A stretch of 64,000 nucleotides of DNA from assembly GCF_963921235.1 (NCBI RefSeq), contig NC_086108.1:75766001-75830000 (forward strand), given 5' to 3'. This document shows, in pieces, positions 8,566 to 49,954 of the stretch (the stretch's first letter is position 1; every line of letters begins with the position of its first letter). The notes below the pieces were generated by a model that was not told the origin of the DNA, did not search any database, and worked only from the letters and a program-made list of their open reading frames with translations. The DNA is from Mobula hypostoma. Taxonomy: Eukaryota. The position numbers were made by a program, and so were the translations under genes.

Positions 8566-9139
8566 AATATAAATTTTCAAATATTGGAGCACCAATAGCA
8601 TCTCAAATCCTCTTCAACCGCTTATTTGTAATCCGACCTAATTTTCTCTTACTGCCACACAATTACTGGATTTGGAATTTTATCTCAAAGTATTTTCCCA
8701 CAAAAATAATAAATACAACCAAATCTGAATCTGAGCTCAAATAAGAAAAAAAAATACCATCCATAATTTAAATAAAATGATGAGAGCAAATCTTGCCCTC
8801 TTTCAGCAGGTTCTTTGGAACAGGTTCTTGCATTTATCATATTTCTTCTGAGCTTGTATAGCTTTTCAACATTTCAAAACGAAAACCAAAACTGTGTTAG
8901 AAAATTATGCACGTTAAAACCTCCCTCTGGGCACATCATTTATGTTATGAAGGGATTATCAATGACATGTATTCTATCTCAATTACACCACATTGAGCTA
9001 CGCACAAAATTTCTCAACTATTTAGCTACTCGCCATTCCCACTGAATATCCAAATACCCAACAAGAAAAAAAAACCTGAATGAATAACTGACAGGAATAA
9101 TTTGATTTTTTTCTAGTTTTCTGAGGCATAAACTATTTG

Positions 9140-9410
9140 GCTCAACCATCAGGCTCATGAATCAAATGGGATAACTTCACTCAACTTGCCATCATTGAAA
9201 TGTTCCCACAACCAATAAACTCACTTTCAAGAACTCATCTTGATATTTATTTATATTGTTGCTTCTTTTTGTGTTTGCCTTCTGCACTCTGGTTGAACGT
9301 CCCAGTTGAGAGGTGTTTCATTAATTCTGTTACAGTTATAATTCTGCAGATTTATTGAATATGTGCATGGTGACATATGTACTTTGGTAATAAAATTTAC
9401 TTTGAACTTT
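9140..9410 (+). mobile_element. Rex-Babar-type LINE 3' UTR
   Basis: Ends AATAAAATTTACTTTGAACTTT, the Rex-type tandem tail. Confidence 0.5.
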
Positions 9411-9491
9411 AATTGAAAATAGCAACTCTTTTACAAGCACAACTTTATCAGAAAGGTAATTTTCTTCTGGATTAAAGGCTTCACCATTTAC

Positions 9492-9613
9492 CTGAGAATG
9501 TTGGGATGAGAAAGACGATTCATTAATTGCACTTCCCGCAGCATGTTTGCTCTATTGCTGATCATTTTGTTCATCTTCAGTGCCATTACTTGTCCCGAAG
9601 TTCTGTGACGCAC
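9492..9613 (-). CDS. TESK2: TESK2 second coding exon (122 bp), kinase subdomains II-IV
   Basis: Read manually (not in the ORF track): tttacag|GTG...CTCAG|gtaaat translates [40 protein letters not shown](R), in phase 0 with the previous exon. No further exon found in 1-9491, so the gene probably continues beyond position 1. Confidence 0.95.
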
Positions 9614-10399
9614 CTGTAAAATTTCAGATAGCATAGAAAGTTGCCATTAAACAACATGTGGATTGGAGTAGCCCGAGTTATCTGGCTTTGGGAGACATGG
9701 GCACAACATGTTTTCGAAAATAAAGTTTCCTCATTTCTATTGTGCCTTGGTACATCGCAATATACTTCACAAAGAACAAATTAATTTGGAACTGCAGTTA
9801 ACTTCAAGAGAAGAACAAAATGAAGCCAACTGTATTTTGTGCAAAGGCACAAATGAGGTCTCAAAAGCATCAAATATGATACTGACCATTTGTGATAGAA
9901 ATAAGCACATTAACGGAGCTAGAATAAATTATTCAAGAAACTAGGAGAAGCAATGAACATTGAATTACAAAAGTATCTCTCTTAACTACTAAAAAGAAAC
10001 TTGTGCTTGTCCTATCTGAAGATTTTGCTCATTTAGTCCTTAGTTGCAACTGGAACCCACAATCTTGTGAAGCAGAAGAGCATAATCAATTGAACTATAT
10101 TAGTAGTTGCAAGTGCAAATTATGTGGCTTTGAGAGTGAGTAAAGACATTAAAAAGCAGGAAACAATATGATGCTAGCTGTAGAATAACAAAGAAAACTT
10201 TAAAAATAGGCAGCCCACGAAAATGTAAATCAAAGCTCACTCATTTCAGATTACCTGAATCCCAGTTTGCCAAGTACAGGTGAAAACAATGAAAGTTCCA
10301 GCTATCAACTTCCAATTCTTTAAGTATATTGAGGAAATAGCTGATTAAAGTGAGTACTAACATTAGATCAACACTCCATTAGATTCCAGGAAGAGACAT

Positions 10400-11985
10400 G
10401 TTTGAACAGCGAAGATGGATGAGAGATGACTTGATAGAGGTATACAAGATAAAAGGCACAGATAGAGTCGACACCCAATGTCTTTTTCCCAGGCCGGCAA
10501 TGAAGAAATAACAAGCAAGAAAGACAAAGCCCATGGTATTACAGAAAATATACTATGGATAGAGCATTGGCTGATTGGCAGAAGGCAAAGAGCAAGAATA
10601 AAGGGAGCCTCTTCTGGTTGGCTACCTATGACTAGTTGTGTTCCAGGGGTGTCTGTATTGGGATCGCCTCTTTTTAGGCTATATATCAATGATTTGGATG
10701 AGGAAATTGATGACTTTGTGGCCAAATTTGCGGATGGTACAAAGTTAGGTGGAGGGGTAGGTAGTTTTGAGGAAGTAGAGGGGCTACAAAAGGAATTAGA
10801 GATTAGGAGAATGGACAGAGGTGGCAGAAGGAATATAATGGTGAGAAGTGTACTGTCATGTACTTCTTGTTAGAAGAAATAAAAGTATAGAATATAAGCA
10901 TAGAGAAAAAAGTCAAAAATCCGAGGCGTAAAGGGACTTGGGAGAAGTCCTCATGCAGGATTCCCCAAAGGTTAATTTGCAGGTCGAGTCAGTGGTGAGG
11001 AAGGTAAAAACAATACTAGTATCAATTGCGAGAGGACTGGAAAATAAAAGCAAGAACGCAATGACGACAATTTAAGGTACTGGTGAGGCCTCACTTGGAG
11101 TATTGTGAACAATTTTGGACCCCACATCTAAGAAAGATGTATTGACACTGGAGAGGGTTCAAGAGGATGTTTATGAAAATGATTCCAGGATTGAAAGGTT
11201 TATCATAAATTTCAATGAGATCCCCCTCATTCTTCTGAATTCCAGTGAGTAGAGGCCCAGAGCATTTGATGGCTTTGGGCCTCTACTCACTGGAATTTTG
11301 CAGAATGAGGGGGAATCTCATTGAAATCTATCAAATGTTGAAAGGCCCCAGCAGAACGGATGTTGAGAAGATGTTTCCTATGGTGCGTGAATCCAAGACC
11401 ACAGGACACAGCCTCAGAACAGAGGGACCTCCATTTAGAACGGAAATGGGGAGGAATTTCTTTAGCCAGAGACTGGTGAATCTGTGAAATTTGATGCCAT
11501 AGGCAACTGTGAAGGCCAAGTCATTGGATATATTTAAGCAGAGGTTGTTAGATTTTTGATTAGTCAGGGCATGAAGGGAAGAAGGCAGGAGATTAGGGCC
11601 GAGAGGGAAATAGATCTGCCATGATGAAATTGGTGGAGCAGACTCAAAGAGCCAAATGACCTAATTCTGCTCCTAAATCTTATAGTCCAAAATGAGAGGA
11701 CATACTTTTAAGGTGATTGGAAGCAAGTATAGGGAGATGTCAGAAGTAGTAGTTTTTTTTTTAAAAACTACACATTGTGGCAGGTACATGGAACACTGCT
11801 GGGAGTAGTAGTAGAGGCAGATACATTCTGAATATTTGGGAGACCCAGAGAGCCACATATCTGAAAGAAAAATGGAAGGCTATGTGGGAGGGAAGGGTTA
11901 CATTTGATCTTGGGAGGTTAAAAGACTGGCACATCCTGGGCTCAAGGGCATTTACTGTTCTGTACCATTCTAAGTTGTATGTTCA
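10400..11985 (+). mobile_element. Compound CR1 LINE fragments (RT C-terminal half + 3' tails)
   Basis: SVLGSPLFRLYINDLDEEIDDFVAKFADGTKLGG and LGLYSLEF...RNFFSQRLVNL, with many frameshifts. Confidence 0.9.
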
Positions 11986-12874
11986 AAACAGCTCATTTAA
12001 AAATGTTTACACAGTTATATGGCTTCATCTGTTTTCACTGATTCATGGAACCACCATGAACTGCATCTTTGCAAGTATATAAATTTATATCTATGGTTAT
12101 ACATCTTTATACCAAAACAAAGCTAATTTTGTTTAAAAGGTAGCTTAAAGTACATTTGTGTACAAAACAGGTGCAACGTTTAGGCATAAACACAGCAATC
12201 CTGCTTGTCGACTATTTCAGCAAAGTAGTTAACAGAAGTGACACAAGTTATCAGCACATTTCAAAACATTTACAATAAATCCCATAAAGATGAAAGAGTT
12301 AAAACTCAAATGATGGAACTCAGATGCTTGTCACTTCACTATGGAGATTTGGTAAAGTCACTGATACATTTGTTAACAGTTCAAATGTGCATTCAAGTTT
12401 TCCAGAAATATCTGTACCAATCATTTGTATTACATACCATTATGAAGTTTGGAGTTCACTGAGCAACAAACAAGCTAATATGGTTCGAGTGATTATTAGT
12501 GGGATGTTCTGAATTATGCAATGAATTATGATTGAACAATAGTGATTATAGATTCATTTTCAGACCAATTTTTACAACTCCTACGTGCCCCTAAATTGTA
12601 ATGAATAAGGAACAGAAAAACATGCATAGTTGAAAAAGAAACTTAACAGATCTTTTGTTTAGGTTTACAGAAATAGTTAACACAAAAATATACATCAGCA
12701 AATTGTTTAAGGAAAGCAATTAATTCCTGTCCCTTGATCTATTAAACAACTCCCACAGCATTTTAAGTTTGCAAGGTCAAATTAACAGACCAGTAACTAA
12801 TGAGCGCTGTAAACCAAAGATTGCATACTTCAAGCAAAGGTAACAAAACTAAACCACACACAACAATATTATTA

Positions 12875-13920
12875 ACATGGGATCCAGGGAAACTTGGCTG
12901 TGTGGATTCTGAATTTGCTTGCCCCATAGAAGGCAGAGGGGTGTCGAAGATGAAGTATATTCTGCCTGCAGATCAGTGGAGTTCCAAGGAATCTGTTCTG
13001 GGAACCCTTCTCTTTGTTATTTCTATCAATGAGTTGGATGAGGAAGTAGAAGGGTGGGTTAATAAGTTCACAGCTAATACAAAGGTTGGTGCAATTGTGG
13101 ATAGTGTAAAAAGTTGTCGTAGGTTACGAGACATCGACAGGATGCAGAGCTGGGCTGCAAAGTGGCAAATGGAGCTCAAACTGGAAAAACTTAAGTGATT
13201 CATGGCAGAAGGTGAATTTGAAGGCAGAGTACAAGATTGATGGCAGAATTCTTAGGAGTGTGAAGGAGTCCACATCTATAGATCCCTCAGAGTTGCTGCA
13301 CAAGTTGATAGGATTGTTAATAAGGTGTATGGTATGTTGGCAAGGTAACGTAATAAAAACCTGGTTAGACTACTGTTGGAATATTGTGTTCAGTTCTGGT
13401 CACCTCATTATAGGAAGGATGTGGAAGCTTTAGAGGGTGCAGAAAAGATTTACAAGGACGCTGCCTGGATTAGAGAGCATGTCTTGTGAGGATAGGCTGA
13501 GCAAGCTTGGGCTTTTCTCCTTGGAGCAAAGGTGGATGAGTCATGCCTTAGAGTTGTGCAAGGTAAAAGACAATGGATCAAGTAGATGGCTAGAATCTTG
13601 TTCCCCAAGGTGGAAACGACTGATACGAAAGGCCATAATTTTAAGGTAATTCAAGCAAGGTGGAGGATATGTCAGAGGTATTTTTTTTTAAAAAAAGAGT
13701 GGTGGGTACATGGAAAGCCCTGCCAGGGATGGTGGCAAAGTTAGATACATCAAGGGCATTTTTTAAAAAAAAACTTTGATAGGCACATGAATTATAGAAA
13801 AATGGAGGTCTATGTAGGAGGGAAGGACTAAATGTTTTACATTAGGGTATAAGGATGACACAACATTGTGGGTGAAAGGGTTTGTACTGTACTGTGCTGT
13901 AGTGTTCAATGCTCCATGTA
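12875..13920 (+). mobile_element. CR1 LINE fragment
   Basis: SVLGTLLFVISINELDEEVEGWVNKF and QKRFTRTLPGLESMSCEDRLSKLGLFSLE. Confidence 0.85.
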
Positions 13921-14291
13921 GTAAAGCAATACTGGCTAGATCACAATACAAAGCAGAGGCAAGTAGCAACTCAGAAAAACAAAGGGTACAAGAATTTCCT
14001 CAGTGAATCCACAATAAAATTTTAGTCATACGTTTTAAATTCAAATTGTATTGTTCCAAGTCAGATTTCCAAACTATTTTGCCATTAACAAAGCAAGACA
14101 TCATTTTACTTGAACAAAACATTGCACAGCAAACCACCAGTGAGCATACAAGTGCTCTTTGCATCACCTATTTTCTTTTAGTCAGCTCTGTAAAGTATTG
14201 TAGGGTTACAACAAAAACCAATAAAGCTCAGTTTGAAAATTCACATTTCTGTCACAATATTTTTTAAAACTCTGAATAATCACACACTGAC

Positions 14292-14510
14292 CTTGTAGAC
14301 TTCAGAAAAAAATCCAGATCCAATTTTTTCACAGATAAAGTCATCAAGCCTAGTAAGTCTGGAGACAGCACTACTTAAGGCTCTGTATGATGAAGGAAAC
14401 ACTGTTGTTGATTGACCAATGGCACTACCATCCCTGCCGCCATCAAACTCTTCCAATCGCTCATGTCTTAATGGTAAAACTGCTATTGAATTTCTTTTAT
14501 TTCGATCCAT
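14292..14510 (-). CDS. TESK2: TESK2 (dual-specificity testis-specific protein kinase 2), first coding exon, 73 codons; whole exon 14292-14580 including 5'UTR
   Basis: Translation [25 protein letters not shown]...[35 protein letters not shown] matches the vertebrate TESK2 N-terminus and kinase Gly-loop. ATG at 14510 in strong context (ggaATGG), polypyrimidine+CAG acceptor at 14581-14583, AAG|GTCAGT donor at 14291. Confidence 0.95.
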
Positions 14511-15446
14511 TCCAAAGAATTCAGCCAGTGTGACTTTCACATTTTAGCATCCAGAGCTTCTTTACTTATTTGGACTCACACTGAAGAGAGAAAAAAATTT
14601 TTTAGTAATTCAGAGGGCTACAATTTACTCTCATGTAATAGTCAGAGCACAGCATTTAAGAGTTCTGGATGGCAATTCAAAAATTTAAACAAGGTCTTAT
14701 CTAAAACTGAGGGAACATTTCCGTTTGAGACTAGCAATGTGTGCATAAGGCATTGGAAATCAGTTTGCAAACAGTAGTCCTTTTCTTTAGTTATATTATA
14801 ATTAAGCTCCATAGCCAAGTCAAATGCAATTCTGAACATTGTTGCATTTTCTCAACAACTTAAGAAATCTCCCTATATTTCTAGTTCATAAATATTTTTC
14901 ACAATTGCAGCTGCAGATTCATTTTTCCACTGAATTTTTTTTTTTTAAAAAGGCACAAGTCTACAAAATTCCACTAGAGCTGGTACTGAGCTCCGACATT
15001 TCCCATCAGGAATGGCCAGGATATATCAGTGCCAGAATTGTACAACTGGCAACCAATGTGAAAGCAGCATAAACAGAGCCACGAGAGAATGTTCCTGCTT
15101 TATCAGCAACTGACTGCTTTCCAATTCCAATAGAATATTATCCCTATTCCAACCTACATACTTAAAAGCTAGGCTAGATCTGCCAACGATTAAGACTTTG
15201 AAAGTACGACTAAAAAAAAACAAAAATATACTTGAGTTAAAGAAGTTTCAGTGAGATAAAAACTTTCAATTTCAGGCTCAGTGTAATAATTAACAATTCC
15301 CAATCCAGCATCTTGTCCTGTAGAGCACACTGGTTTCCCCACCCCCACAAGTATAAGTAACCAGAGAATACAGATTCAAGGTAAAAAAAAACAAATAAAT
15401 TTGAGAGCTACAAACTGGAAAGGAGCTGAGCTATTCAGCAACACAA

Positions 15447-22164: not shown

Positions 22165-23734
22165 AAGAAAGCCAAGGTATTCCCCTTCTTTACAGTTTTC
22201 ATTGTTTTACACCATCGAATCACAGTGGATTCAGCTTGTATTTTTTAACACTGATCAACAGAAAAACTCTTTCAAGCCAAAGTGAAAACAGATCTCTACA
22301 AAGTAATCAAACTTAATTCCAAATATAAAACACAATGTAATTGATTAAATAAGTAGTCACTCCCTTCAAGTCAGTTTTTAGTAGAGGCACCTTTGGCAGC
22401 AATTACAGCCTTTGAGTCTGTGTGGATAGGTGTCTATCAGCTGCTCCATCAGGTTGCACGGGGATCATGAGTGAACAGCCTTTTTCTAAGTCCAGCCACA
22501 AGTCCTCAATTGGATTGAAGTCTAGACACTGACTTGGCCACTCCAGGACATTAACTTTGTTGTTTTTAAGTCATTCCTAAGTAGCTTTGGCTTTATGCTT
22601 GGGGGTTATTGTCTGGCTGGAAAACAAATCTTCTCCCAAGTCGCAGTTCTCTTGCACACTGTATCAGGTCTTCCTCCAGGATTTCCCTATATTTTGCTGC
22701 ATTCATTTTATCCTCTGCCCTTTACAAGCCTTCCAGGCTGATGGCCAAAAAGCTCAATTTTGGTTTCATCAGACCATCGAACCTTCTTCCTGCTGACTTC
22801 AGTCTTACATATGCCTTGTGGCAAAAACTAGCCAAGATTTCAAGGTAGTTTTTCTTCCCCCACCTCGCCCCCCAACAGTGGCTTTCTCTTTGCCACTCTC
22901 CCATAAAGCTGCGACTGGTGAAGCACCAAGGCAACAGTTGTATGTGTAGTCTTTCCCATCTCAGCCACTGAAGCTTTTAATTCCTCCAGAATTGTCACAG
23001 ATCTCTTTGTGGCCTCCCTCACTAGTCCCCTTCTTGCACGGTCACTCAATTCTTTGAGGACGGCCTGCTCCAAGCAGATTTACAGCTGTGTCATATTCTT
23101 TCCGTTTCTTGATGATTGACTTAACTGTACTCCAAGGGATATTCAGTGACTTGGAGATTATCTTGCATCCATCTCATGACTTTCCAATTACCTTTTCACA
23201 CAGTTGCTTGGAGTGTTCTTTTGTCTTCATGGTGTAGTTTTTGCCAGGGTACTGACTCACCAGCAGATGTATTTTTTTTCCCCCCATTTGAAACACCTTG
23301 ACCGCACACAGGTGATCTCCATTTAATTAATTATGTGACTTCTAAAACCAATTGGCTGCACCAGTGATGGTGTGATGAGTCATTAAAGGGATGAATACCT
23401 ATGCAATAAGTTTGTCAGTAATTTACATCACTTTGTCAAGATCTGTTTTCACTTTGACATGAAGTCTTTCTGTTGATCACTGCTTTTAAAAAAGCCAAAT
23501 TAAATCTGCAAACACGAGGAAATCTGCAGACGCTGGAATTTCAAGCAACACGCACAAAAATTGCTGGTGAATACAACAGGCCTGACAAAGGGTCTTGGCC
23601 CGAAATGTCGACTATACCTCTTCCTATAGATGCTGCCTGGTCTGCTGCGTTCACCAAATTAAATCCACTGTGATTCAACGTTGTAAAACAATAAGAGATC
23701 TTCCAAGGGGCTGAATTTCTTTTTATAGGCACTG
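22165..23734 (-). mobile_element. Degraded Tc1-family transposon with long TIRs
   Basis: Transposase remnant LVREATKR...LEELKASVAEMG...GLYGRVAKRKPLL-like (QLYGRVAKRKPLL). Right end CACTG|TA; internal inverted matches (CTGATCAACAGAAA / TTTCTGTTGATCA, AAAGTGAAAACAGATCT / AGATCTGTTTTCACTTT). Left terminus eroded. Confidence 0.85.
23507..23653. mobile_element. Short fold-back PLE tail insertion inside a Tc1 TIR
   Basis: 12-bp TSD CCAAATTAAATC (23495-23506 / 23654-23665); minus-strand 3' end joined to a plus-strand segment starting at CCTGACAAAGGG. Confidence 0.85.
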
Positions 23735-27755: not shown

Positions 27756-28806
27756 TTGTAACATTATCTGAGCTTCCGCTCTCCAAGGACAGTGCCTGAT
27801 CCAAGTATTTGCACTGCACTAATGTGCCTTTGGTTTCAGCAACGGCTCCGACAAGCAACTCACAGCTTTTATTTATCCATTCTTTCTCTCAGATGTCCTC
27901 ATTACTTTACCAGCCAGATCTTCAGCATCCATGCCTTTGGTGTGCCACCCTAGACTGTCCCAAACAGAGTGCTTTCCTAAGACCGACGCATCTCTACAAC
28001 TAAAAGCCAACATGTTTTTTTTTCCTCAGTTACCCAATTCTTAAGTTTGTTCTCCCACAGATACTGCCATACTGCTACTTCCTATTTTTTTTATATTAGG
28101 CAAAACTGGTTGGTAAACAAGAGAGCAGCTTGACAGACATTATTCAGTCGAGACTAATTAAGCTGTGCATACCTAACAACAGATATTCATGATACTAAGG
28201 CAAGTATGAGGAACTAGTAGAAAACACTACACTGTGACACAGGTAGACAGGGTGATGAAAATGGTGCTAGGCACACTTGCCTTCAGCAAGGCACTGAGTA
28301 CAAGAGTTGGGACATATAGTTACAGCTGTAAAAGACATTGTTGACACTACACTTAAAGAGTACTGTCTGCAGTTCTGATCACCTAGCTACTATAGAGAAG
28401 TGTCATTAAGCTGGAGAGGGTGCAGATTCTACTCATTTGGAGGTTACAGTGATGCAGTATGGCACCAAAGACACAAATTTCTATAGGCGTGCAGTGGAGA
28501 ACATTCAGACTGGTTGCAGCACAACATTTCAAGAAGCTACAGAAGTTTACAGATACAGCCAGCTCCATCACCATCATCTGCAGATTTTCTCTTGCCTGTG
28601 ATTCCGTCAGCATCAAGGTCTTGAAGAGGTGGTGTTTCAAACCAGTGGCATTCATCATCATTTCACCATCTTGACATGTCCTCTTCTTTATATTACAATC
28701 GGAGAGGTAGTATGGGAGCCTGAAGATTCAATCAATGATTCAGGAACAGCTTCTCCTCTACCATCAGATTTCTGAATGGTCCGAGAAAATTACCTCATTA
28801 CTACTA

Positions 28807-30982
28807 GCAACACACATAAAAGTTGCTGGTGAGTGCAGCAGGCCAGGCAGCATCTCTAGGAAGAGGTGCAGTCGATGTTTCAGGCCGAGACCCTTCGTCA
28901 GGACTAACTGAAGGAAGAGTGAGTAAGGGATTTGAAAGTTGGAGGGGGAGGGGGAGATCCAAAATGATAGGAGGAGGGGGAGGGATGGAGCCAAGAGCTG
29001 GACAGGTGATAGGCAAAAGGGGATACGAGAGGATCATGGGACAGGAGGTCCGGGAAGAAAGACAAGTGGGGGGGGGAACCCAGAGGATGGGCAAGGGGTA
29101 TAGTCAGAGGGACAGAGGAAGAAAAAGGAGAGTGAGAGAAAGAATGTGTGTGTAAAAAATAAATAACGGATGGGGTACGAGGGGGAGGTGGGGCATTAGC
29201 GGAAGTTAGAGAAGTCAATGTTCATGCCATCAGGTTGGAGGTTACCCAGACGGAATACAAGGTGTTGTTCCTCCAATCTGAGTGTGGCTTCACCTTTACA
29301 GTAGAGGAGGCCGTGGATAGACATGTCAGAATGGGAATGGGATGTGGAATTAAAATGTGTGGCCACTGGGAGATCCTGCTTTCTCTAGCGGACAGAGCGT
29401 AGGTGTTCAGCAAAGCGGTCTCCCAGTCTGCGTCGGGTCTCGCCAATATATAAAAGGCCACATCGGGAGCACCGGACGCAGTATATCACCCCAGCCGATT
29501 CACAGGTGAAGTGTTGCCTCACCTGAAAGGACTGTTTGGGGCCCCGAATGGTGGTAAGGGAGGAAGTGTAAGGGAATGTGTAGCACTTGTTCCGGTTACA
29601 CAGATAAGTGCCAGGAGGGAGATCAGTGGGGAGGGATGGGGGGACGGACGAATGGACAAGGGAGTTGCGTAGGGAGCCATCCCTGCGGAATGCAGAGGGG
29701 GGGGAAGGGAAAGATGTGCTTAGTGGTGGGATCCCGTTGGAGGTGGCGGAAGTTACGAAGAATAATATGTTGGACCCGGAGGCTGGTGGGGTGGTAGGTG
29801 AGGACCAGGAGAACCCTATTCCTAGTGGGGTGGTGGGAGGATGGAGTGAGAGCAGATGTACGTGAAATGAGGGAGATGCGTTTAAGAGCAGAGTTGATAG
29901 TGGAGGAAGGGAAGCCCCTTTCTTTAAAAAAAGGAAGACATCTCCCTCGTCCTAGAATGAAAGGCCTCATCCTGAGAGCAGATGCGGTGGAGATGGAGGA
30001 ATTGCGAGAAGGGGATGGCGTTTTTGGCGGAGACAGAGGAATTCCTCCCTCCCCACTGATGTCCCCCCCATCCCTCCCCACTGATGTCCCTACTGGCAGT
30101 CCCCCCCCATCCCTCCCCACTGATCTCCCTCCTGGCAGTCCCCCCCATCCCTCCCCACTGATCTCCCTCCTGGCACTTATCCGTGCCAGCGGAACAAGTG
30201 CTACACATGCCCTTACACTTCCTCCCTTACCACCATTCAGGGCCCCAACCAGTCCTTCCAGGTGAGGCAACACTTCACCTGTGAGTCGGCTGGGGTGATA
30301 CACTGCGTCCGGTGCTCCCAATGTGGCCTTTTATATATTGGCGAGACCCGATGCAGACTGGGAGACTGCTTTGCTGAACACCTACGCTCTGTCCACCAGA
30401 GAAAGCAGGATCTCCCAGTGGCCACTCATTTTAATTCCACATCCCATTCCCATTCTGACATGTCTATCCACGGCCTTCTCTACTGTAAAGATGAAGCCAC
30501 ACTCAGGTTGGAGGAACAACACCTTATATTCCGTCTGGGTAGCCTCCAACCTGATGGCATGAACATTGACTTCTCTAACTTCCGCTAAGGCCCCACCTCC
30601 CCCTCGTACCCCATCTGTTATTTATTTTTATACACATATTCTTTCTCTCACTCTCCTTTTTCTCCCTCTGTCCCTCTGAATATACCCCTTGCCCATCCTC
30701 TGGGATCCCCCCCCTTGTCTTTTTTCCCGAACCTCCTGTCCCATGATCCTTTCGTATCCCTTTTGCCTATCACTTGTCCAGCTCTTGGCTCCATCCCTTC
30801 CCCTCCCCCTCCAACTTTCAAATCCCTTACTCACTCTTCCTTCAGTTAGTCCTGACGAAGGGTCTCGGCTTGAAACGTCGACTGCACCTTTTCCTAGAGA
30901 TGCTGCCTGGCCTGCTGCGTTCACCAGCAGCTTTTATGTGTGTTGCTTGAATTTCCAGCATCTGCAGTATTCCTGTTGTTTG
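28807..30982. mobile_element. Large fold-back (head-to-head) Penelope-like insertion
   Basis: Minus-strand PLE 28807-~30040 joined to plus-strand PLE ~30045-30982 (GIY-YIG GVIHCVRCSQCGLLYIGET). TSD CCTCATT(A/C)CTACTA at 28793-28806 / 30983-30996. Confidence 0.9.
30847..30883 (+). ncRNA. Minimal hammerhead ribozyme motif in PLE tail
   Basis: AGTC-CTGACGA-A-GGGTCTCGGCTT-GAAACGTC-GACT: both core boxes, helix I AGTC/GACT and a GUC site; helix II weakened by G-U pairs. Confidence 0.6.
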
Positions 30983-32261
30983 CCTCATTCCTACTACTTC
31001 TTTTTGCACTATTTCTGTAGTTTATAATAATTTTATATATTTGCACTGTATTGCTGCCACAAAACATTTCACCTTATTTGTCAACGATAATAACCCTGAT
31101 CCTGAGTAATCAAAGGATGTTGGAAGTCACACAAAAGTACATTAAACAAAGAACTTTATACAGAAAAAACTATCAATATAACAGTGCAAGACCAAATTGC
31201 AACACCTGGTTCTTTTAAGCATGTACTTCCACAACTTAATACAAACTGCACTTAATTTTCAATTAACTTGTTTAAATCCCAATTTCCAATGACTTAATAT
31301 TGTCTCTTAATTCTACCTTTAACTAGAAGAAATTATAAGCAAATTTAAGAAATTTATATTACAGTGGGTGCCTCTTCCCAAGAAGACTCTGAAAGCAATA
31401 TTTTTACAACTGTCCATTACACTGTCCTGATGGTCAATAATCCTTTTCTGAAACCGCATATGCTTCCTTTGCAGTTTTAGAACTTACTTGATAAAGAAAA
31501 GTCTACCTTCCTGGCCTGAAAATGAAGCACCATTGGCCGTTAACATTCATTATTCACTTACAACTCTTTGCAAAATGGAACAAAATTAACCACTTTAACC
31601 TACAGGAAGACTAATAAAAGATCCAAGCAAACATCTGCTGAACTGAGAAATTCTGGCCAAAATCAGACATAGATGACAGGAAATCCTCTTGATACAAGTA
31701 TCTTTCAGATAATATCAGCAGAGAACCCATTAATTTGATTAGATTTGGAAAAAAAATCTTTGCTTTCAAATTGCACACATTAAAAAATCCAAGTGTATTA
31801 CTGCATTATGACAAAAACTAAATGGACAAAAAAAAGCTGCGTTAGAAAGCAGCTTGCATGGACACAGTACCAAAAAGAGCTTCTTTTGCAATTTTAGAAC
31901 AGTACCTTTCAAAATATAGAACTTTCTCCAGGATGTTTCATGTAAAATAACCATTTTCAAATGCACTGCTAATTTAATACATCATAGAGATCATCATTTC
32001 CCAAAAGCAAAAACATTACTTTACAAAATATCTTATAAAACAGACTAACTGCATGGCAAATATTACAACCATCAAGATTAAAAGAAACAAGATTGAATAA
32101 AGAGTTAAGGAGAAACCAATGCTAAAAATAAGTCCCATTGGGGGGTTATGGGAGCAGATACGCATCTTTTAGAATCAAGTCATGAACAAACCTTTAACCA
32201 TCAAACATCATTGGACTATCTGAAGTTAGTTGAGCAAGAGCTGTTAATTGGAATCTATTAA

Positions 32262-46100: not shown

Positions 46101-47768
46101 GCATCAAGACTATAAAACTAGGACACAGTATGCAGCTTGCTTTAGAGCCTCCAAAAAGCCCTGAGATCTCTGATTTTTAAATGGACCATTCAAATTAAAA
46201 TCCAGATAACTCAAAAAGGAGCCCAAGGACCTGTGAACAAAATGAAGAAGAACCCAGTGGACAAAATGGTAAGAATGGTGGTCTGTATCCCTTCCAAGCT
46301 GTCTAAAATTATCAATATCAGATTATGCATGAGTTTGGGTTTCTCATGAACCGCCCTCAAAAGTGATTTACATTGTAATTCTAGCCCTCTTTGCAAAAAG
46401 TTAGACACCGCTCTTCAGGGCAGCAGATGTTGTTGGTTTGGATTGATTTTCAGAGGATCTGTGGCAAGTTGATATAGTGCAGTTGTGGATGGCACAGAGT
46501 TTGTTGTGACATTAGTAATGAATTGACAAGACAACGCAGGGTCCCAATCAAGCAGACTTCTTTATTGCAGTTATCAAAGTATTTGTTCATATTCACAACA
46601 GCATGGTGGAAAGGTTTTGGAGGTAATTGAGTCACTTTCAACACAACATTTTGTCTTTGACCTGTTCTCATTGAAACTGTTCATATGGATGATAAGGTTA
46701 AGCTTTGAGTGATGTTAATCCCTCTAATTATCAAAAGAAGGTGTTTAGACTCTTTCTTGCACCTGTGGCATGAATAATGCTGTGTATTACCAACATGTTG
46801 CGTGATAAGATCGTCTGGTGGGATCATTTTTTAAACAAGTGCATACATGCAGGTCTGTACTTCCTTACAAATGGAGAGGATGGAAAATTCAGAAAATAGA
46901 TGACTTTAAGTGTCCCACACAACTGAGTTATAACATTGGCATCAACAAAAAAACTATAAGAGAAAAATGGCTAGATTTTTTTCCATATAAAAAGTATACA
47001 AGGAAAAAAATCGATTTTACTTAAATAGATTGTGACAATATTATCTGAATTTCCCATCTATTGCTATTTTGTATGTCTATCTGTCTAACACATATTTTGT
47101 ATGTTTCCACACTATTACAAATGCATTCCTTTGCTTTTCCGGTACTGGAGACAATATTACAATTGCTGTTAGTCTGTAGCTAAACAAAGATCCAGAATAG
47201 TTCCTTTGTCTTGGGTGCACCGTTGTTTATAAATAATATTCTTTGCTTTAGTGGAAGCTATCTACAATAAACTGAAAAATATGTAGGAAAGAAATCTTTT
47301 CCATGAAATGTAACAGTAAGTTCAGATTTAAGGGATGGCAGGAACATCAAGCGCTGGCATCAAATTGTAATTTTGCTTTGCATTAAATAGGTTACAAGAT
47401 CATAGATGTACAGTTGAAGTCAGAAGATTACATACACCTTAGCCAAATACATTTAAACTTAGTTTTTCACAATTCCTGACATTTAATCCTAGAAAACATT
47501 CCCTGCCTTAGGTTGGTTAGGATCACTACTTTATTTTAAGAATGTGAAATGTCAGAATAATAGTAGAGAGAATGATTTATTTCAGCTTTTATTTCTTTCA
47601 TCGCTTTCCCAGTGGGTCAGAAGTTTACATACATTTTGTTGGTATTTAGTAGCATTGCCTTTAAATTGTTTAATTTAGGTCAAATGTTTTGGGTAGCCTT
47701 CCACAAGCTTCTCACAGTAAGTTGCTGGAATCTTGTTCCATTCCTCCAGACAGAACTGATGTAACTGA

Positions 47769-47974
47769 CATCAAAGTTGCTGGTGAACGCAGCAGGCCAA
47801 GCAGCATCTATAGGAAGAGGCGCAGTCGACGTTTCAGGCCGAGTCCTGACGAAGGGTCTCGGCCTGAAACGTCGACTGCGCCTCTTCCTATAGATGCTGC
47901 TTGGCCTGCTGCGTTCACCAGCAACTTTGATGTATGTTGCTTGAATTTCCAGCATCTGCAGAATTCCTGTTGTT
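47769..47974 (+). mobile_element. Short fold-back PLE tail insertion in the left arm of the Tc1
   Basis: 12-bp TSD TGATGTAACTGA (47757-47768 / 47975-47986); perfect 76-bp inverted repeat 47768-47843 / 47858-47933. Confidence 0.92.
47842..47877 (+). ncRNA. Minimal hammerhead ribozyme motif (best-preserved copy); predicted cleavage after C47873
   Basis: Helix I AGTC/GACT, core CTGACGA 47846-47852, helix II GGGT-CTCG-GCCT, GAAA 47866-47869, palindromic ACGT helix III, GUC triplet. Confidence 0.7.
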
Positions 47975-49954
47975 TGATGTAACTGAGTCAGGTTTCTAGG
48001 CCTCCTTGCTCGTACACACTTTTTCAGTTCTGCCCACAAATTTTCTGTCAGATTCAGGTCAGAAAATGATGTCAACTCTGGTTTATCCTTGGGAGCACTT
48101 TCCAAATGCCTGAAGGTACCACGTTCATCTGTATAATCAATAATACACAAGTATAAACACCATGGGACCACGCAGCTGTCATACCGCTCAGGAAGGAGAC
48201 ACATTCTGTCTCCTAGAGATGAATGTACTTTGGTGCAAAAAGTGCAAACCAATCCCAGAACAACAGCAAAGGACCTTGTGAAGATGCTGGAGGAAACAGG
48301 TAGACAGGTATCTATATCCACAGTAAAACGAGTCCTATATCGACATAACCTGAAAGGCTGCTCAGCAAGGAAGAAGCCACTGCTCCAAAACCACCATAAA
48401 AAACCCAGACGACAGTTTGCAAGTGCACATGGGGACAAAGATCTTACTTTTTGGAGAAATGTCTTCTGGTCTGATGAAACAAAAATTGAATTGTTTGGCC
48501 ATAATGACCATCGTTATGTTCGGAGGAAAAAGGGTGAGGCTTGCAAGCCAAAGAGCACCATCCCAACCATGAAGCATGGGGGTGGCAGCATCATATTGTG
48601 GGGGCTTTGCTGCAGAAGGGTCTGGTGCACTTCACAAAATAGATGGCATCATGAGGAAGGAAAATTATGTGGATATATTGAAGCAACATCTTAAGACATC
48701 AGCCAGGAAGTTAAAGCTCGGTCGCAAATGGGTTTTCCAAACGGACAATGACCCCAAGCATACCTCCAAAGTTGTGACAAAATTGCTTAAGGACAACAAA
48801 GTCAAGGTATTGGAGTGGCCATCACAAAGCCCTGACCTCAATCTGATAGAAAATTTGTGGGCAGAACTGAAAAAGCGTGTGCGAGTAAGGAGGCCTACAA
48901 ACCTGACTCAGTTACACCAGTTCTGTCTGGAGGAATGGAACAAAATTCCAGCAACTTACTGAGAGAAGCTTGTGGAAGACTACCCAAAATGTTTGACCCA
49001 AGTTAAACGATTTAAAGGCAATGCTACCAAATACTAACAAAATGTTTGTAAACTTCTGACCCACTGGGAAAGTGATGAAAGAAATAAAAGCTGAAATAAA
49101 TCATTCTCTCTACTATTATTCTGACAGTTCACATTCTTAAAGTAAAAGTAGTGATCCTAACTGACCTAAGACAGGGAATGTTTTCTAGGATTAAACGTCA
49201 GGAATTGTGAAAAACTGAGTTTAAATGTATTTGGCTAAGGTATATGTAAACTTCTGACTTCAACTGTAGATCTCCAGGAGCAGCTGCTGATTAATTTTCA
49301 AGCCTTTCTTTATTATTTCAAGTGAAGTGTATTTGGGATATTTAGGGAATATCTTGTAATTAGCATTACTCTGTAACGTATCTGGAAGTTCAACTATGTT
49401 TTACATTTTTTTAAACTTTAAAAATGAATGAAGTTTTTCATTTTTCTACTTATCTTTCCATTCAGTGATTACTTTGCTATTTTTCTTTGAATGTAACAAT
49501 GTAGCAAATTCTTAATCTGCACTGCCAAACCTGCCTCATGAATTTTTCTGCAGGTGTGACACCACTTGAATCCAGCTAGTTTTATCAATTAATTGTTGTC
49601 ACTGGAACTTGTTATTTATCTTTAGTCTGAGTATAAAACAACTATGACTTCTCTTATGTCTTTGTTTCTTCTTTGTTTAGGCTTTATACCCCACTCTCGA
49701 CTTCTAAAGAACTTCAGGATCAATATCACTAGATCTAGCATACCTCATAAGACTATTCTCAGTTCCCTAATTTACTCCTTAGAAAACCGACAAATGCATG
49801 GCTAGATTCTGGTTAATTTATTTTTGTAACAATTTGGTTTATGTGCTGTGTGTGATATATGTTTTTATGGGTGCACCGTGGTCTAGAGGAGCATTGTTTC
49901 GTTTGGTTGTATACAGTATATATACAGTCAGTTGACAATAAACTTGAACTTGAA

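What the first reader, a model, noticed from the sequence alone, without database searches (positions are those of the whole stretch)
47757..47986. Ribozyme-centred perfect fold-back mini-insertion of a Penelope tail
Seen: a 206-bp insert flanked by an exact 12-bp TSD. The empty site is visible in the opposite Tc1 arm (48905-48925). The insert is a perfect 76-bp inverted repeat, its forward copy starts exactly at the 5' strand of hammerhead helix I, and the inverted copy lacks the last ~41 nt of the element. Known: PLEs carry minimal hammerheads and can produce inverted pLTR structures. Inference: the insert is little more than ribozyme plus 3' recognition tail, either a minimal product of PLE two-strand integration or a mobile non-autonomous ribozyme hairpin.
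Basis: partly seen in the sequence, partly recalled or inferred. Interest (0 to 1): 0.75.

Follow-up and report, generated by a model that had tools for sequence, protein, structure and literature searches.

The report
Mirror-image stub of Penelope retrotransposon
This 206-base hairpin-shaped insert is one of thousands of short mirror-image stubs of a very abundant Penelope-like jumping gene, a layout already known for this class; its fold is remade at each landing rather than spread by a mobile ribozyme hairpin, and it likely sits at the ribozyme's front edge because copying of the element's RNA tends to end there.

Summary
In detail: 206-bp insert (47769-47974), exact 12-bp target duplication, 75-bp perfect inverted repeat (76 with one flank base), 42-nt one-sided tail, forward arm starting at helix I of a minimal hammerhead (2-nt junction overlap). 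It is the 3' end of a Neptune-like Penelope element (34,363 exact tail matches). Of 99 unselected insertions, 54 have an adjacent inverted arm and 34 are mini fold-backs; junctions are heterogeneous, but 58 of 151 arm ends pile up within about 15 nt of helix I. The exact junction recurs 101 times, yet 19 of 30 such copies carry the tail on the other arm, with 14 marker haplotypes: recurrent by-product, not a mobile hairpin. The two arms share variants (211/237 against 50% shuffled) and their lengths are coupled, so both come from one source copy. Ends do not peak at the cleavage site, and the fold-back is predicted to block the ribozyme. The layout is published (Craig 2021, Arkhipova 2013). 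Searches found no paper on the pile-up, which coincides with a conserved splice-acceptor motif; its cause is unresolved. The scan reported the same thing before, in this genome and others.

The parts
47757..47768 (+). Left copy of the 12-bp target site duplication
   Evidence: family duplications are mostly 13-15 bp (64 of 99)
47769..47843 (-). Inverted arm: element positions -40 to -114 (0 = window 47972), lacking the tail and the CUGANGA half of the hammerhead
   Evidence: family inverted arms start at -25 to -42 in 46 of 54
47842..47843 (.). 2-nt overlap (AG) shared by both arms at the junction
   Evidence: 19 of 54 unselected junctions show overlap, 8 are blunt, 27 have inserted bases
47842..47974 (+). 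[quoted passage not shown]
47842..47877 (+). Minimal type I hammerhead motif: helix I 47842-45/47874-77, core 47846-52, extra A 47853, helix II 47854-57/47862-65 (G-U closing pair in this subfamily), GAAA 47866-69, palindromic ACGT, predicted cut after 47873
   Evidence: and sequence inspection against the description in PMC4209133; no Rfam hit; activity untested
47933..47974 (+). One-sided 42-nt tail, the stretch between the two inferred reverse-transcription start sites
   Evidence: interpretation from PMC11167929 and PMC8557442
47975..47986 (+). Right copy of the target site duplication
47411..49266 (+). Host: decayed Tc1 DNA transposon between TA dinucleotides, arms 92-94% complementary
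   Evidence: (HTH_Tnp_Tc3_2, DDE_3)
48908..48919 (-). Empty site in the opposite Tc1 arm (single copy, 11 of 12 bases match the duplicated 12-mer)

Best explanation
The insert is a dead, minimal insertion product of an abundant Neptune-like Penelope element, with a tailed forward copy and a tail-less inverted copy of the same 3' end joined head to head between target duplications, likely made when the element's protein primed DNA synthesis from both ends of a staggered cut at two start sites about 40 nt apart on one source RNA. Shown: the layout, its abundance (34 of 99 insertions are such minis), the pile-up of arm ends at -145 to -116, the shared variants and coupled lengths of the two arms, and the independent recurrence of this junction. 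Inferred: the 12-bp staggered double nick, priming at the tail end (+2) and at the internal site (about -34 to -40), both copies stopping near the hammerhead's 5' edge, and joining through a 2-nt overlap or snap-back of one cDNA. The most likely reason for the stop is that many template RNAs effectively begin there (a start site in the pseudo-LTR, or a splicing branch or acceptor lying at -145 to -128); a local RNA hairpin (-145 to -115) is an alternative. The ribozyme's cut does not set the main junction, and the finished hairpin is predicted to mask the ribozyme.
For: Parent element: L152 encodes RT (RVT_1, E 1.7e-05) and GIY-YIG (E 4.3e-04), both just under the Pfam cut-offs, with a CxxC in the linker; the insert's forward arm is identical to the pseudo-LTR of L225 and L236. 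Unselected sample (first 100 tail matches on contig C1 = 99 insertions): 54 with an adjacent inverted arm, 34 with both arms 160 nt or shorter; one junction seen twice among minis, none equal to the focal one. Arm 5' ends: 58 of 151 in -145..-116 against 8 and 18 in the flanking 30-nt windows (binomial p 2.5e-11); stop rate about 0.2 per 10 nt there against 0.00-0.02 upstream of -160; single-armed copies show the same peak (17 of 43). Arm lengths coupled: 17 long/long, 34 short/short, 2 mixed; Spearman 0.75. Arms share alleles at 211 of 237 polymorphic comparisons, against a shuffled mean of 50% and maximum of 70%. Exact-junction copies: tail on either arm, 14 haplotypes. Pyrimidine tract + AG directly before TCCTGA in 13 of 14 pyrimidine-rich contexts binned as outside the young subfamily, and a TACTAAC branch motif in a subfamily with 8,888 exact matches. 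Literature: inverted 5'-truncated copy plus one-sided 30-40-bp tail (PMC8557442; PMC3846280); two adjacent RT start sites bounding the tail, both strands cut and extended, predicted dimer (PMC11167929); internal promoter and intron in the pseudo-LTR (PMC2377424), the intron ending at the 5' end of helix I in D. virilis (PMC4209133).
Against: No RNA or read data for this organism, so the template's 5' end is not observed. The test for an untemplated cap-derived G gave no support: G before -130 1,518 against A 1,299, and in the loci read the G usually came from the duplication or the other arm. The peak is about 30 nt broad, not a single base. None of 60 arms selected for starting at -130 showed a shared upstream exon by eye (2 proved to be native read-through, 1 a forward join to ORF sequence), so copying of spliced RNA is not shown. 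Coupled arm lengths would also follow from snap-back priming, and shared variants from later gene conversion between arms. Rearranged junctions can be re-copied in long elements (L200 and L215 share one; L222 and L224 share another), so occasional re-copying of a mini is not excluded. The sample comes from the first 8 Mb of one contig and only from copies with an exact 33-nt tail.
Confidence: 0.85

Rival explanations
1. A mobile non-autonomous hairpin family: the 206-bp fold-back is transcribed as a unit and re-inserted by the PLE protein.
For: 101 exact matches to the junction 30-mer; the 40 scored candidates of 908 all span nearly the whole query at 93-100% identity, four of them at 99.5% or more; long rearranged copies can be re-copied (L200/L215).
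Against: 19 of 30 exact-junction copies have the tail on the other arm, with 14 haplotypes; outer ends vary copy by copy like any other insertion; the junction is about 0.3% of hammerhead arms and 0 of 99 unselected insertions; the high identities reflect a young subfamily whose long copies have the same sequence; the RNA is predicted to be a 75-bp duplex that buries the inner start region.
Confidence: 0.05
2. Hammerhead self-cleavage creates the short template and so sets the junctions.
For: Arms starting exactly at the predicted cut (-98) number 445 against 207 and 338 at the next two bases; after removing read-through copies (true ends 27 of 30, 8 of 15, 5 of 15) that is roughly 400 against 110 and 110, about 3.6-fold. 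4 of 54 inverted arms in the unselected sample are compatible with -98.
Against: The focal forward arm and most arms extend about 30 nt past the cut; starts at -130 preceded by G or A alone number 2,817 (different pattern, so a rough comparison). 26 of 27 true -98 starts are joined to an inverted arm and none to plain flank (the 27th follows a short direct repeat), many through helix-I overlap, which points to pairing at the join rather than an RNA end. In vitro, cleavage was not needed for insertion (PMC11167929).
Confidence: 0.07
3. Sub-rival on the joining step only: one cDNA folds back on itself and primes the second arm (self-priming, as proposed for rotifer PLEs), instead of two separately primed cDNAs.
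For: 14 of 53 two-armed insertions have arm ends within 5 nt of each other, some at very long distances (L182, -1898/-1896); PMC3846280 reads junction palindromes as self-priming; a hairpin is predicted at -145..-115 (RNA -10.2, cDNA -3.6 kcal/mol).
Against: The tail-less arm reaches further 5' than the tailed arm in 26 cases against 13, which fold-back from the tailed cDNA alone cannot give; a second primed cDNA is still needed to supply the tail. The peak also occurs in single-armed copies.
Confidence: 0.3
4. Assembly or amplification artefact (chimeric palindrome).
For: Perfect palindromes are a known artefact class (own knowledge); no reads could be laid on the insert.
Against: Exact target duplication and an empty paralogous site; asymmetric structure with a family-typical tail; dozens of other loci with the same layout, their own duplications and arms that have diverged by up to 9 of 75 bases.
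Confidence: 0.02

Closest known systems
Insertion units of endonuclease-bearing Penelope-like elements with an adjacent inverted 5'-truncated copy and a one-sided 30-40-bp tail (Craig et al. 2021, PMC8557442; Arkhipova et al. 2013, PMC3846280; Schostak et al. 2008, PMC2377424)
   Same: Forward 5'-truncated copy, adjacent inverted copy, tail on one end only, target duplication, hammerhead motif in the pseudo-LTR; parent has RT, linker CxxC and C-terminal GIY-YIG as in Neptune.
   Different: Extreme truncation (about 200 bp, no ORF) is the largest single class here; arm ends pile up at the hammerhead's 5' edge; tail 42 nt and duplications mostly 13-15 bp, a little longer than the 8-10 bp reported for rotifer copies.
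Anolis Poseidon PLE in vitro (Frangieh et al. 2024, PMC11167929)
   Same: Two RT start sites bounding the tail, both target strands nicked and extended, hammerhead upstream of the start sites and dispensable for insertion.
   Different: That work does not describe the inverted arm or where cDNAs end; here the hammerhead lies upstream of the ORF start instead of overlapping it.
Minimal hammerheads of metazoan PLEs (Cervera and de la Pena 2014, PMC4209133)
   Same: 4-bp helix I, CUGANGA, one extra base before helix II, no helix III loop, palindromic 15.2-16.2; pairs of motifs on opposite strands 100-700 bp apart were noted there; in D. virilis the intron ends at helix I.
   Different: Here the closing pair 10.1-11.1 is G-U in this subfamily, helix II is 4 bp, and the fold-back keeps only one complete motif, predicted to be masked.
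Non-LTR retrozymes of animals (bioRxiv 10.64898/2026.07.22.740005)
   Same: Short, non-coding, hammerhead-bearing, derived from PLE pseudo-LTRs.
   Different: Retrozymes are head-to-tail tandems with at least two complete ribozymes; this is head-to-head with one.
L1 twin priming (recalled, no call)
   Same: Two primed cDNAs from opposite target strands give an inverted 5' part.
   Different: L1 arms copy non-overlapping parts of the RNA; here both arms copy the same stretch, giving a palindrome.

Membership tests
EN+ Penelope-like element (Neptune-like) insertion | Parent ORF with RT and C-terminal GIY-YIG | tested here: met
   L152: RVT_1 E 1.7e-05 and GIY-YIG E 4.3e-04, both slightly below the curated cut-offs, in that order; insert's forward arm identical to the pseudo-LTR of L225 and L236
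EN+ Penelope-like element (Neptune-like) insertion | Zn-finger-like motif between RT and EN (Neptune/Nematis) and phylogenetic placement | tested here: inconclusive
   CxxC (CYTC) seen before the GIY-YIG part; no tree was built, so the Neptune label rests on this motif and on recall
EN+ Penelope-like element (Neptune-like) insertion | Partial-tandem pseudo-LTR upstream of the ORF | tested here: met
   L225, L228, L235, L236: the 3'-end sequence runs through the tail into the ORF start
EN+ Penelope-like element (Neptune-like) insertion | Adjacent inverted 5'-truncated copy, one-sided tail, target duplication | tested here: met
Minimal hammerhead ribozyme of PLEs | Core bases, short helix I, extra base before helix II, palindromic helix III remnant | tested here: met
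   sequence inspection against PMC4209133; 10.1-11.1 is G-U rather than G-C; no Rfam hit
Minimal hammerhead ribozyme of PLEs | Self-cleavage | not testable with these tools
   predicted masked in the fold-back (helix I pair probability 0.0); genomic hint at -98 is weak and has another reading
Non-LTR retrozyme | Head-to-tail tandem with at least two complete hammerheads | tested here: not met
   single head-to-head unit with one complete motif
Non-autonomous mobile hairpin family (SINE- or MITE-like) | Copies descend from one master: fixed junction, polarity and haplotype | tested here: not met
   tail on either arm (19/10/1 of 30), 14 haplotypes; heterogeneous junctions

The most novel reading that the evidence does not exclude
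These minis are a fossil record of the unsolved PLE integration step: a protein dimer copies one short RNA twice, from two start sites 40 nt apart and from both nicked target strands, and the dominant template is a short pseudo-LTR RNA whose usable 5' limit is a splicing branch point or acceptor fused to hammerhead helix I. On this reading splicing gates the ribozyme (the intron's pyrimidine tract is predicted to pair with the hammerhead core until it is removed) and a splicing intermediate is the template for more than half of all insertions, giving roughly 12,000 hairpin loci in this genome.
Probability: 0.2. Interest if true: 0.65.

Novelty: new member of a known kind. Interest (0 to 1): 0.3.

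Why it matters
The locus itself is ordinary. The family statistics bear on an open question, how PLEs make their inverted repeats: both arms come from one source copy, their lengths are coupled, either arm can carry the tail, and ends pile up just ahead of the hammerhead instead of at its cut. These are constraints that the published in vitro system could test directly. An estimated 9,000-15,000 young hairpin inserts (34 of 99 scaled to 34,363 tail matches; sample from one region) would also be a large potential source of double-stranded RNA where they are transcribed, which is untested.

Tried and rejected
Rfam: nothing at gathering score in the window; only generic miRNA-hairpin and a chance UnaL2 match at the locus. 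Passenger amplification inside Tc1: none of the other 29 loci fetched lies in this Tc1. Read check: the 24 runs found hold under half of the words, and the four laid cover only the Tc1 part, with zero depth on the insert, so they say nothing for or against the assembly. Cap-derived G at -130 or -145: no support; the A-at--146 control turned out to be a native subfamily allele, so the -145 comparison is void. Shared upstream exon at -130: none seen by eye in 60 loci. Inr-like motifs at -158, -145, -134 and -130 were noted, but are expected by chance in a pyrimidine-rich tract and are not counted as evidence. Rows dropped: L201 (same insertion as L200); L123 (complex interior) and L190 (mis-chained) were left out of the arm-end counts, which leaves 54 two-armed and 43 single-armed; L200 was left out of the length and allele comparisons; the allele test used the 50 loci with 25 nt or more of arm overlap. 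Literature searches with no relevant hit.

Full report
Observation. The insert is as described: an exact 12-bp duplication (47757-68, 47975-86) around 206 bp, a perfect inverted repeat of 75 bp inside the insert (76 with one flank base), a 14-nt spacer and a 42-nt unpaired tail. It sits in the left arm of an old Tc1 element (47411-49266; Pfam HTH_Tnp_Tc3_2 and DDE_3; arms 92-94% complementary), whose right arm shows the site once (48908-48919, 11 of 12 bases matching). The forward arm opens with AGTC CTGACGA A ... GAAA CGTC GACT, which fits the minimal hammerhead of PLEs described in PMC4209133 (parts 1 and 2 of 4 of the text read); Rfam has no match. The first two bases (AG) belong to both arms, so the start is fixed only to within 2 nt.

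Parent element. A pattern from the tail has 34,363 exact matches in the 3.48-Gb genome and one from the hammerhead 39,168, with 0 for the reversed controls. Locus L152 holds about 3 kb of the element with RT and GIY-YIG similarity. L225, L228, L235 and L236 show the partial-tandem layout in which the 3' end runs through the tail into the ORF start; the insert's forward arm occurs letter for letter in L225 and L236, 2 of 19 long loci checked. I number positions from window 47972 = 0: helix I starts at -130, the predicted cut lies between -99 and -98, the ORF stops at -427.

Is it a family or a by-product? The first search looked like a family: all 40 scored candidates (of 908) covered nearly the whole 206 bp, and the junction 30-mer has 101 exact matches. 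That search was biased toward the query, so I fetched the first 100 tail matches on contig C1 without regard to structure; they are 99 insertions. 54 have an adjacent inverted arm (one more, L123, has one beyond a complex interior and was set aside); 46 of the 54 start it at -25 to -42; 34 are minis with both arms 160 nt or shorter. Junctions are heterogeneous: one was seen twice among the minis and none equals the focal one; 19 show overlap, 8 are blunt, 27 have inserted bases. Among the first 30 of the 101 exact-junction copies, 10 have the tail on the arm that starts at -130, as here, 19 have it on the other arm, and 1 on neither; they fall into 14 haplotypes at four marker sites and 24 have a detectable duplication of their own (the label '-117' should read -114). 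One master cannot give both polarities in many haplotypes, so the junction forms again and again.

Where arms end. 58 of 151 arm 5' ends fall in -145..-116, against 8 in the 30 nt upstream and 18 in the 30 nt downstream (p 2.5e-11). The stop rate is about 0.2 per 10 nt at -120..-149 and 0.00-0.02 upstream of -160; the mode is -130/-129 (13 ends). Single-armed copies show the same peak (17 of 43), so it is a property of copying and not only of joining. Arm lengths are coupled (17 long/long, 34 short/short, 2 mixed; Spearman 0.75), and the tail-less arm reaches further 5' in 26 cases against 13, with 14 ties. The two arms of an insertion carry the same allele in 211 of 237 comparisons at seven polymorphic sites in 50 loci (139 of 154 without CpG-like sites); shuffling gives 50%, maximum 70%. 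Both arms therefore derive from one source copy; later conversion between arms could add to this.

Is the ribozyme the cause? Starts exactly at the cut number 445, against 207 and 338 at the next two bases; corrected for read-through copies in the loci read (27 of 30, 8 of 15, 5 of 15 true ends) this is about 3.6-fold. But 26 of those 27 are joined to an inverted arm, often through helix-I overlap, and none to plain flank, whereas about 45% of insertions are single-armed. Pairing at the join explains this better than cleaved RNA, though a minor cleaved class is not excluded. The main peak lies 30 nt further 5'. In the finished fold-back, helix I has pair probability 0.0 and the other strand lacks the CUGANGA core. 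What does coincide with the peak is a splice-acceptor-like motif: a pyrimidine tract and AG directly before TCCTGA in 13 of 14 pyrimidine-rich contexts binned as outside the young subfamily (of 27 such contexts among 404; some of the 14 are decayed young-type copies), and TACTAAC plus tract plus CAG in a subfamily with 8,888 exact matches, with the branch A at -145. In D. virilis the intron ends at the 5' end of helix I (PMC4209133) and the pseudo-LTR holds an internal promoter that can fire from the 3' copy (PMC2377424, parts 1-3 of 4 read). A hairpin is also predicted over -145..-115 that pairs the tract with the hammerhead core. My tests did not separate these causes: no cap-derived G, no shared upstream exon in 60 loci, no RNA data.

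Mechanism. Shown in vitro for another PLE (PMC11167929, parts 1-2 of 4 read): both target strands are nicked and extended, RT starts at two internal sites that bound the tail, and ribozyme cleavage is dispensable. Inferred here: a staggered cut of 12 bp; one cDNA primed at +2, the other near -40; both stop near the hammerhead's 5' edge; they are joined by a short overlap or by snap-back of one of them; repair yields the duplication. I put 0.85 on this being a dead by-product of two-ended PLE integration; the cause of the stop is open, with an RNA start or splicing boundary somewhat ahead of a structural pause.

Comparison and novelty. [quoted passage not shown] The insert is not a retrozyme (bioRxiv 10.64898/2026.07.22.740005; part 1 of 5 and passages read; its supplements are closed). 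I found no paper on the pile-up at helix I or on arm coupling in five searches, but the library lacks most subscription papers and repeat databases were not searched; no supplements were read. Earlier scan notes report the same kind of insert in this genome and others; they were seen after my reading was fixed and are not counted as support. Verdict: real, a new member of a known kind, with a modest mechanistic refinement; interest 0.3.

Noticed in passing
window 28806-30983: A long two-armed copy of the same family: inverted arm -31 to -1265, forward arm -877 to +2, with a decayed duplication of about 13 bp. Same layout as the mini, ten times longer.
   Followed up: partly
window 23511-23656: An older, diverged mini fold-back of a related subfamily on the minus strand (tailed arm to -69, other arm -130 to -52).
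   Followed up: no
window 47411-48062 against 48832-49266: The host Tc1's inverted homology runs about 440 bp, well into the transposase C-terminus, so its left end looks replaced by an inverted copy of the right end. Close relatives of this Tc1 are abundant in sequencing runs of other organisms, which may reflect horizontal spread.
   Followed up: no
L200/L201 and L215 (G000:C1 about 397-401 kb and 1824-1827 kb): Two separate long insertions share the identical fold-back junction (-925/-2748); L160 starts at the same point. L222 and L224 share an internal direct duplication. Rearranged masters are therefore re-copied, or these joins recur.
   Followed up: partly
L225, 652 nt upstream of the L152 match: A copy that includes the ORF start has its upstream pseudo-LTR beginning exactly at -130, as expected if a transcript starts there; the four others with an upstream pseudo-LTR begin at -194, -409, -816 and beyond -982.
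   Followed up: partly
L237 and L325: Forward joins that skip part of the element: L237 jumps from -32 into the ORF 5' region; L325 joins the first bases of the ORF region to -145.
   Followed up: no
L271, L277, L281, L283, L289, L290, L299 at the -130 start: 7 of 30 arms with A before -130 are preceded by CGA, which resembles a short re-copy of the hammerhead's own ACGAAG and suggests RT slippage at this boundary.
   Followed up: no
L033 and L034 (G000:C1 101.64 Mb): Two minis with the identical junction and different target duplications lie 8 kb apart.
   Followed up: no
window 47885-47893 (element -87 to -79): A second acceptor-like motif (pyrimidine tract, then AG before ATGCTGC) lies downstream of the hammerhead; the AG is kept across the subfamily variants seen.
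   Followed up: no
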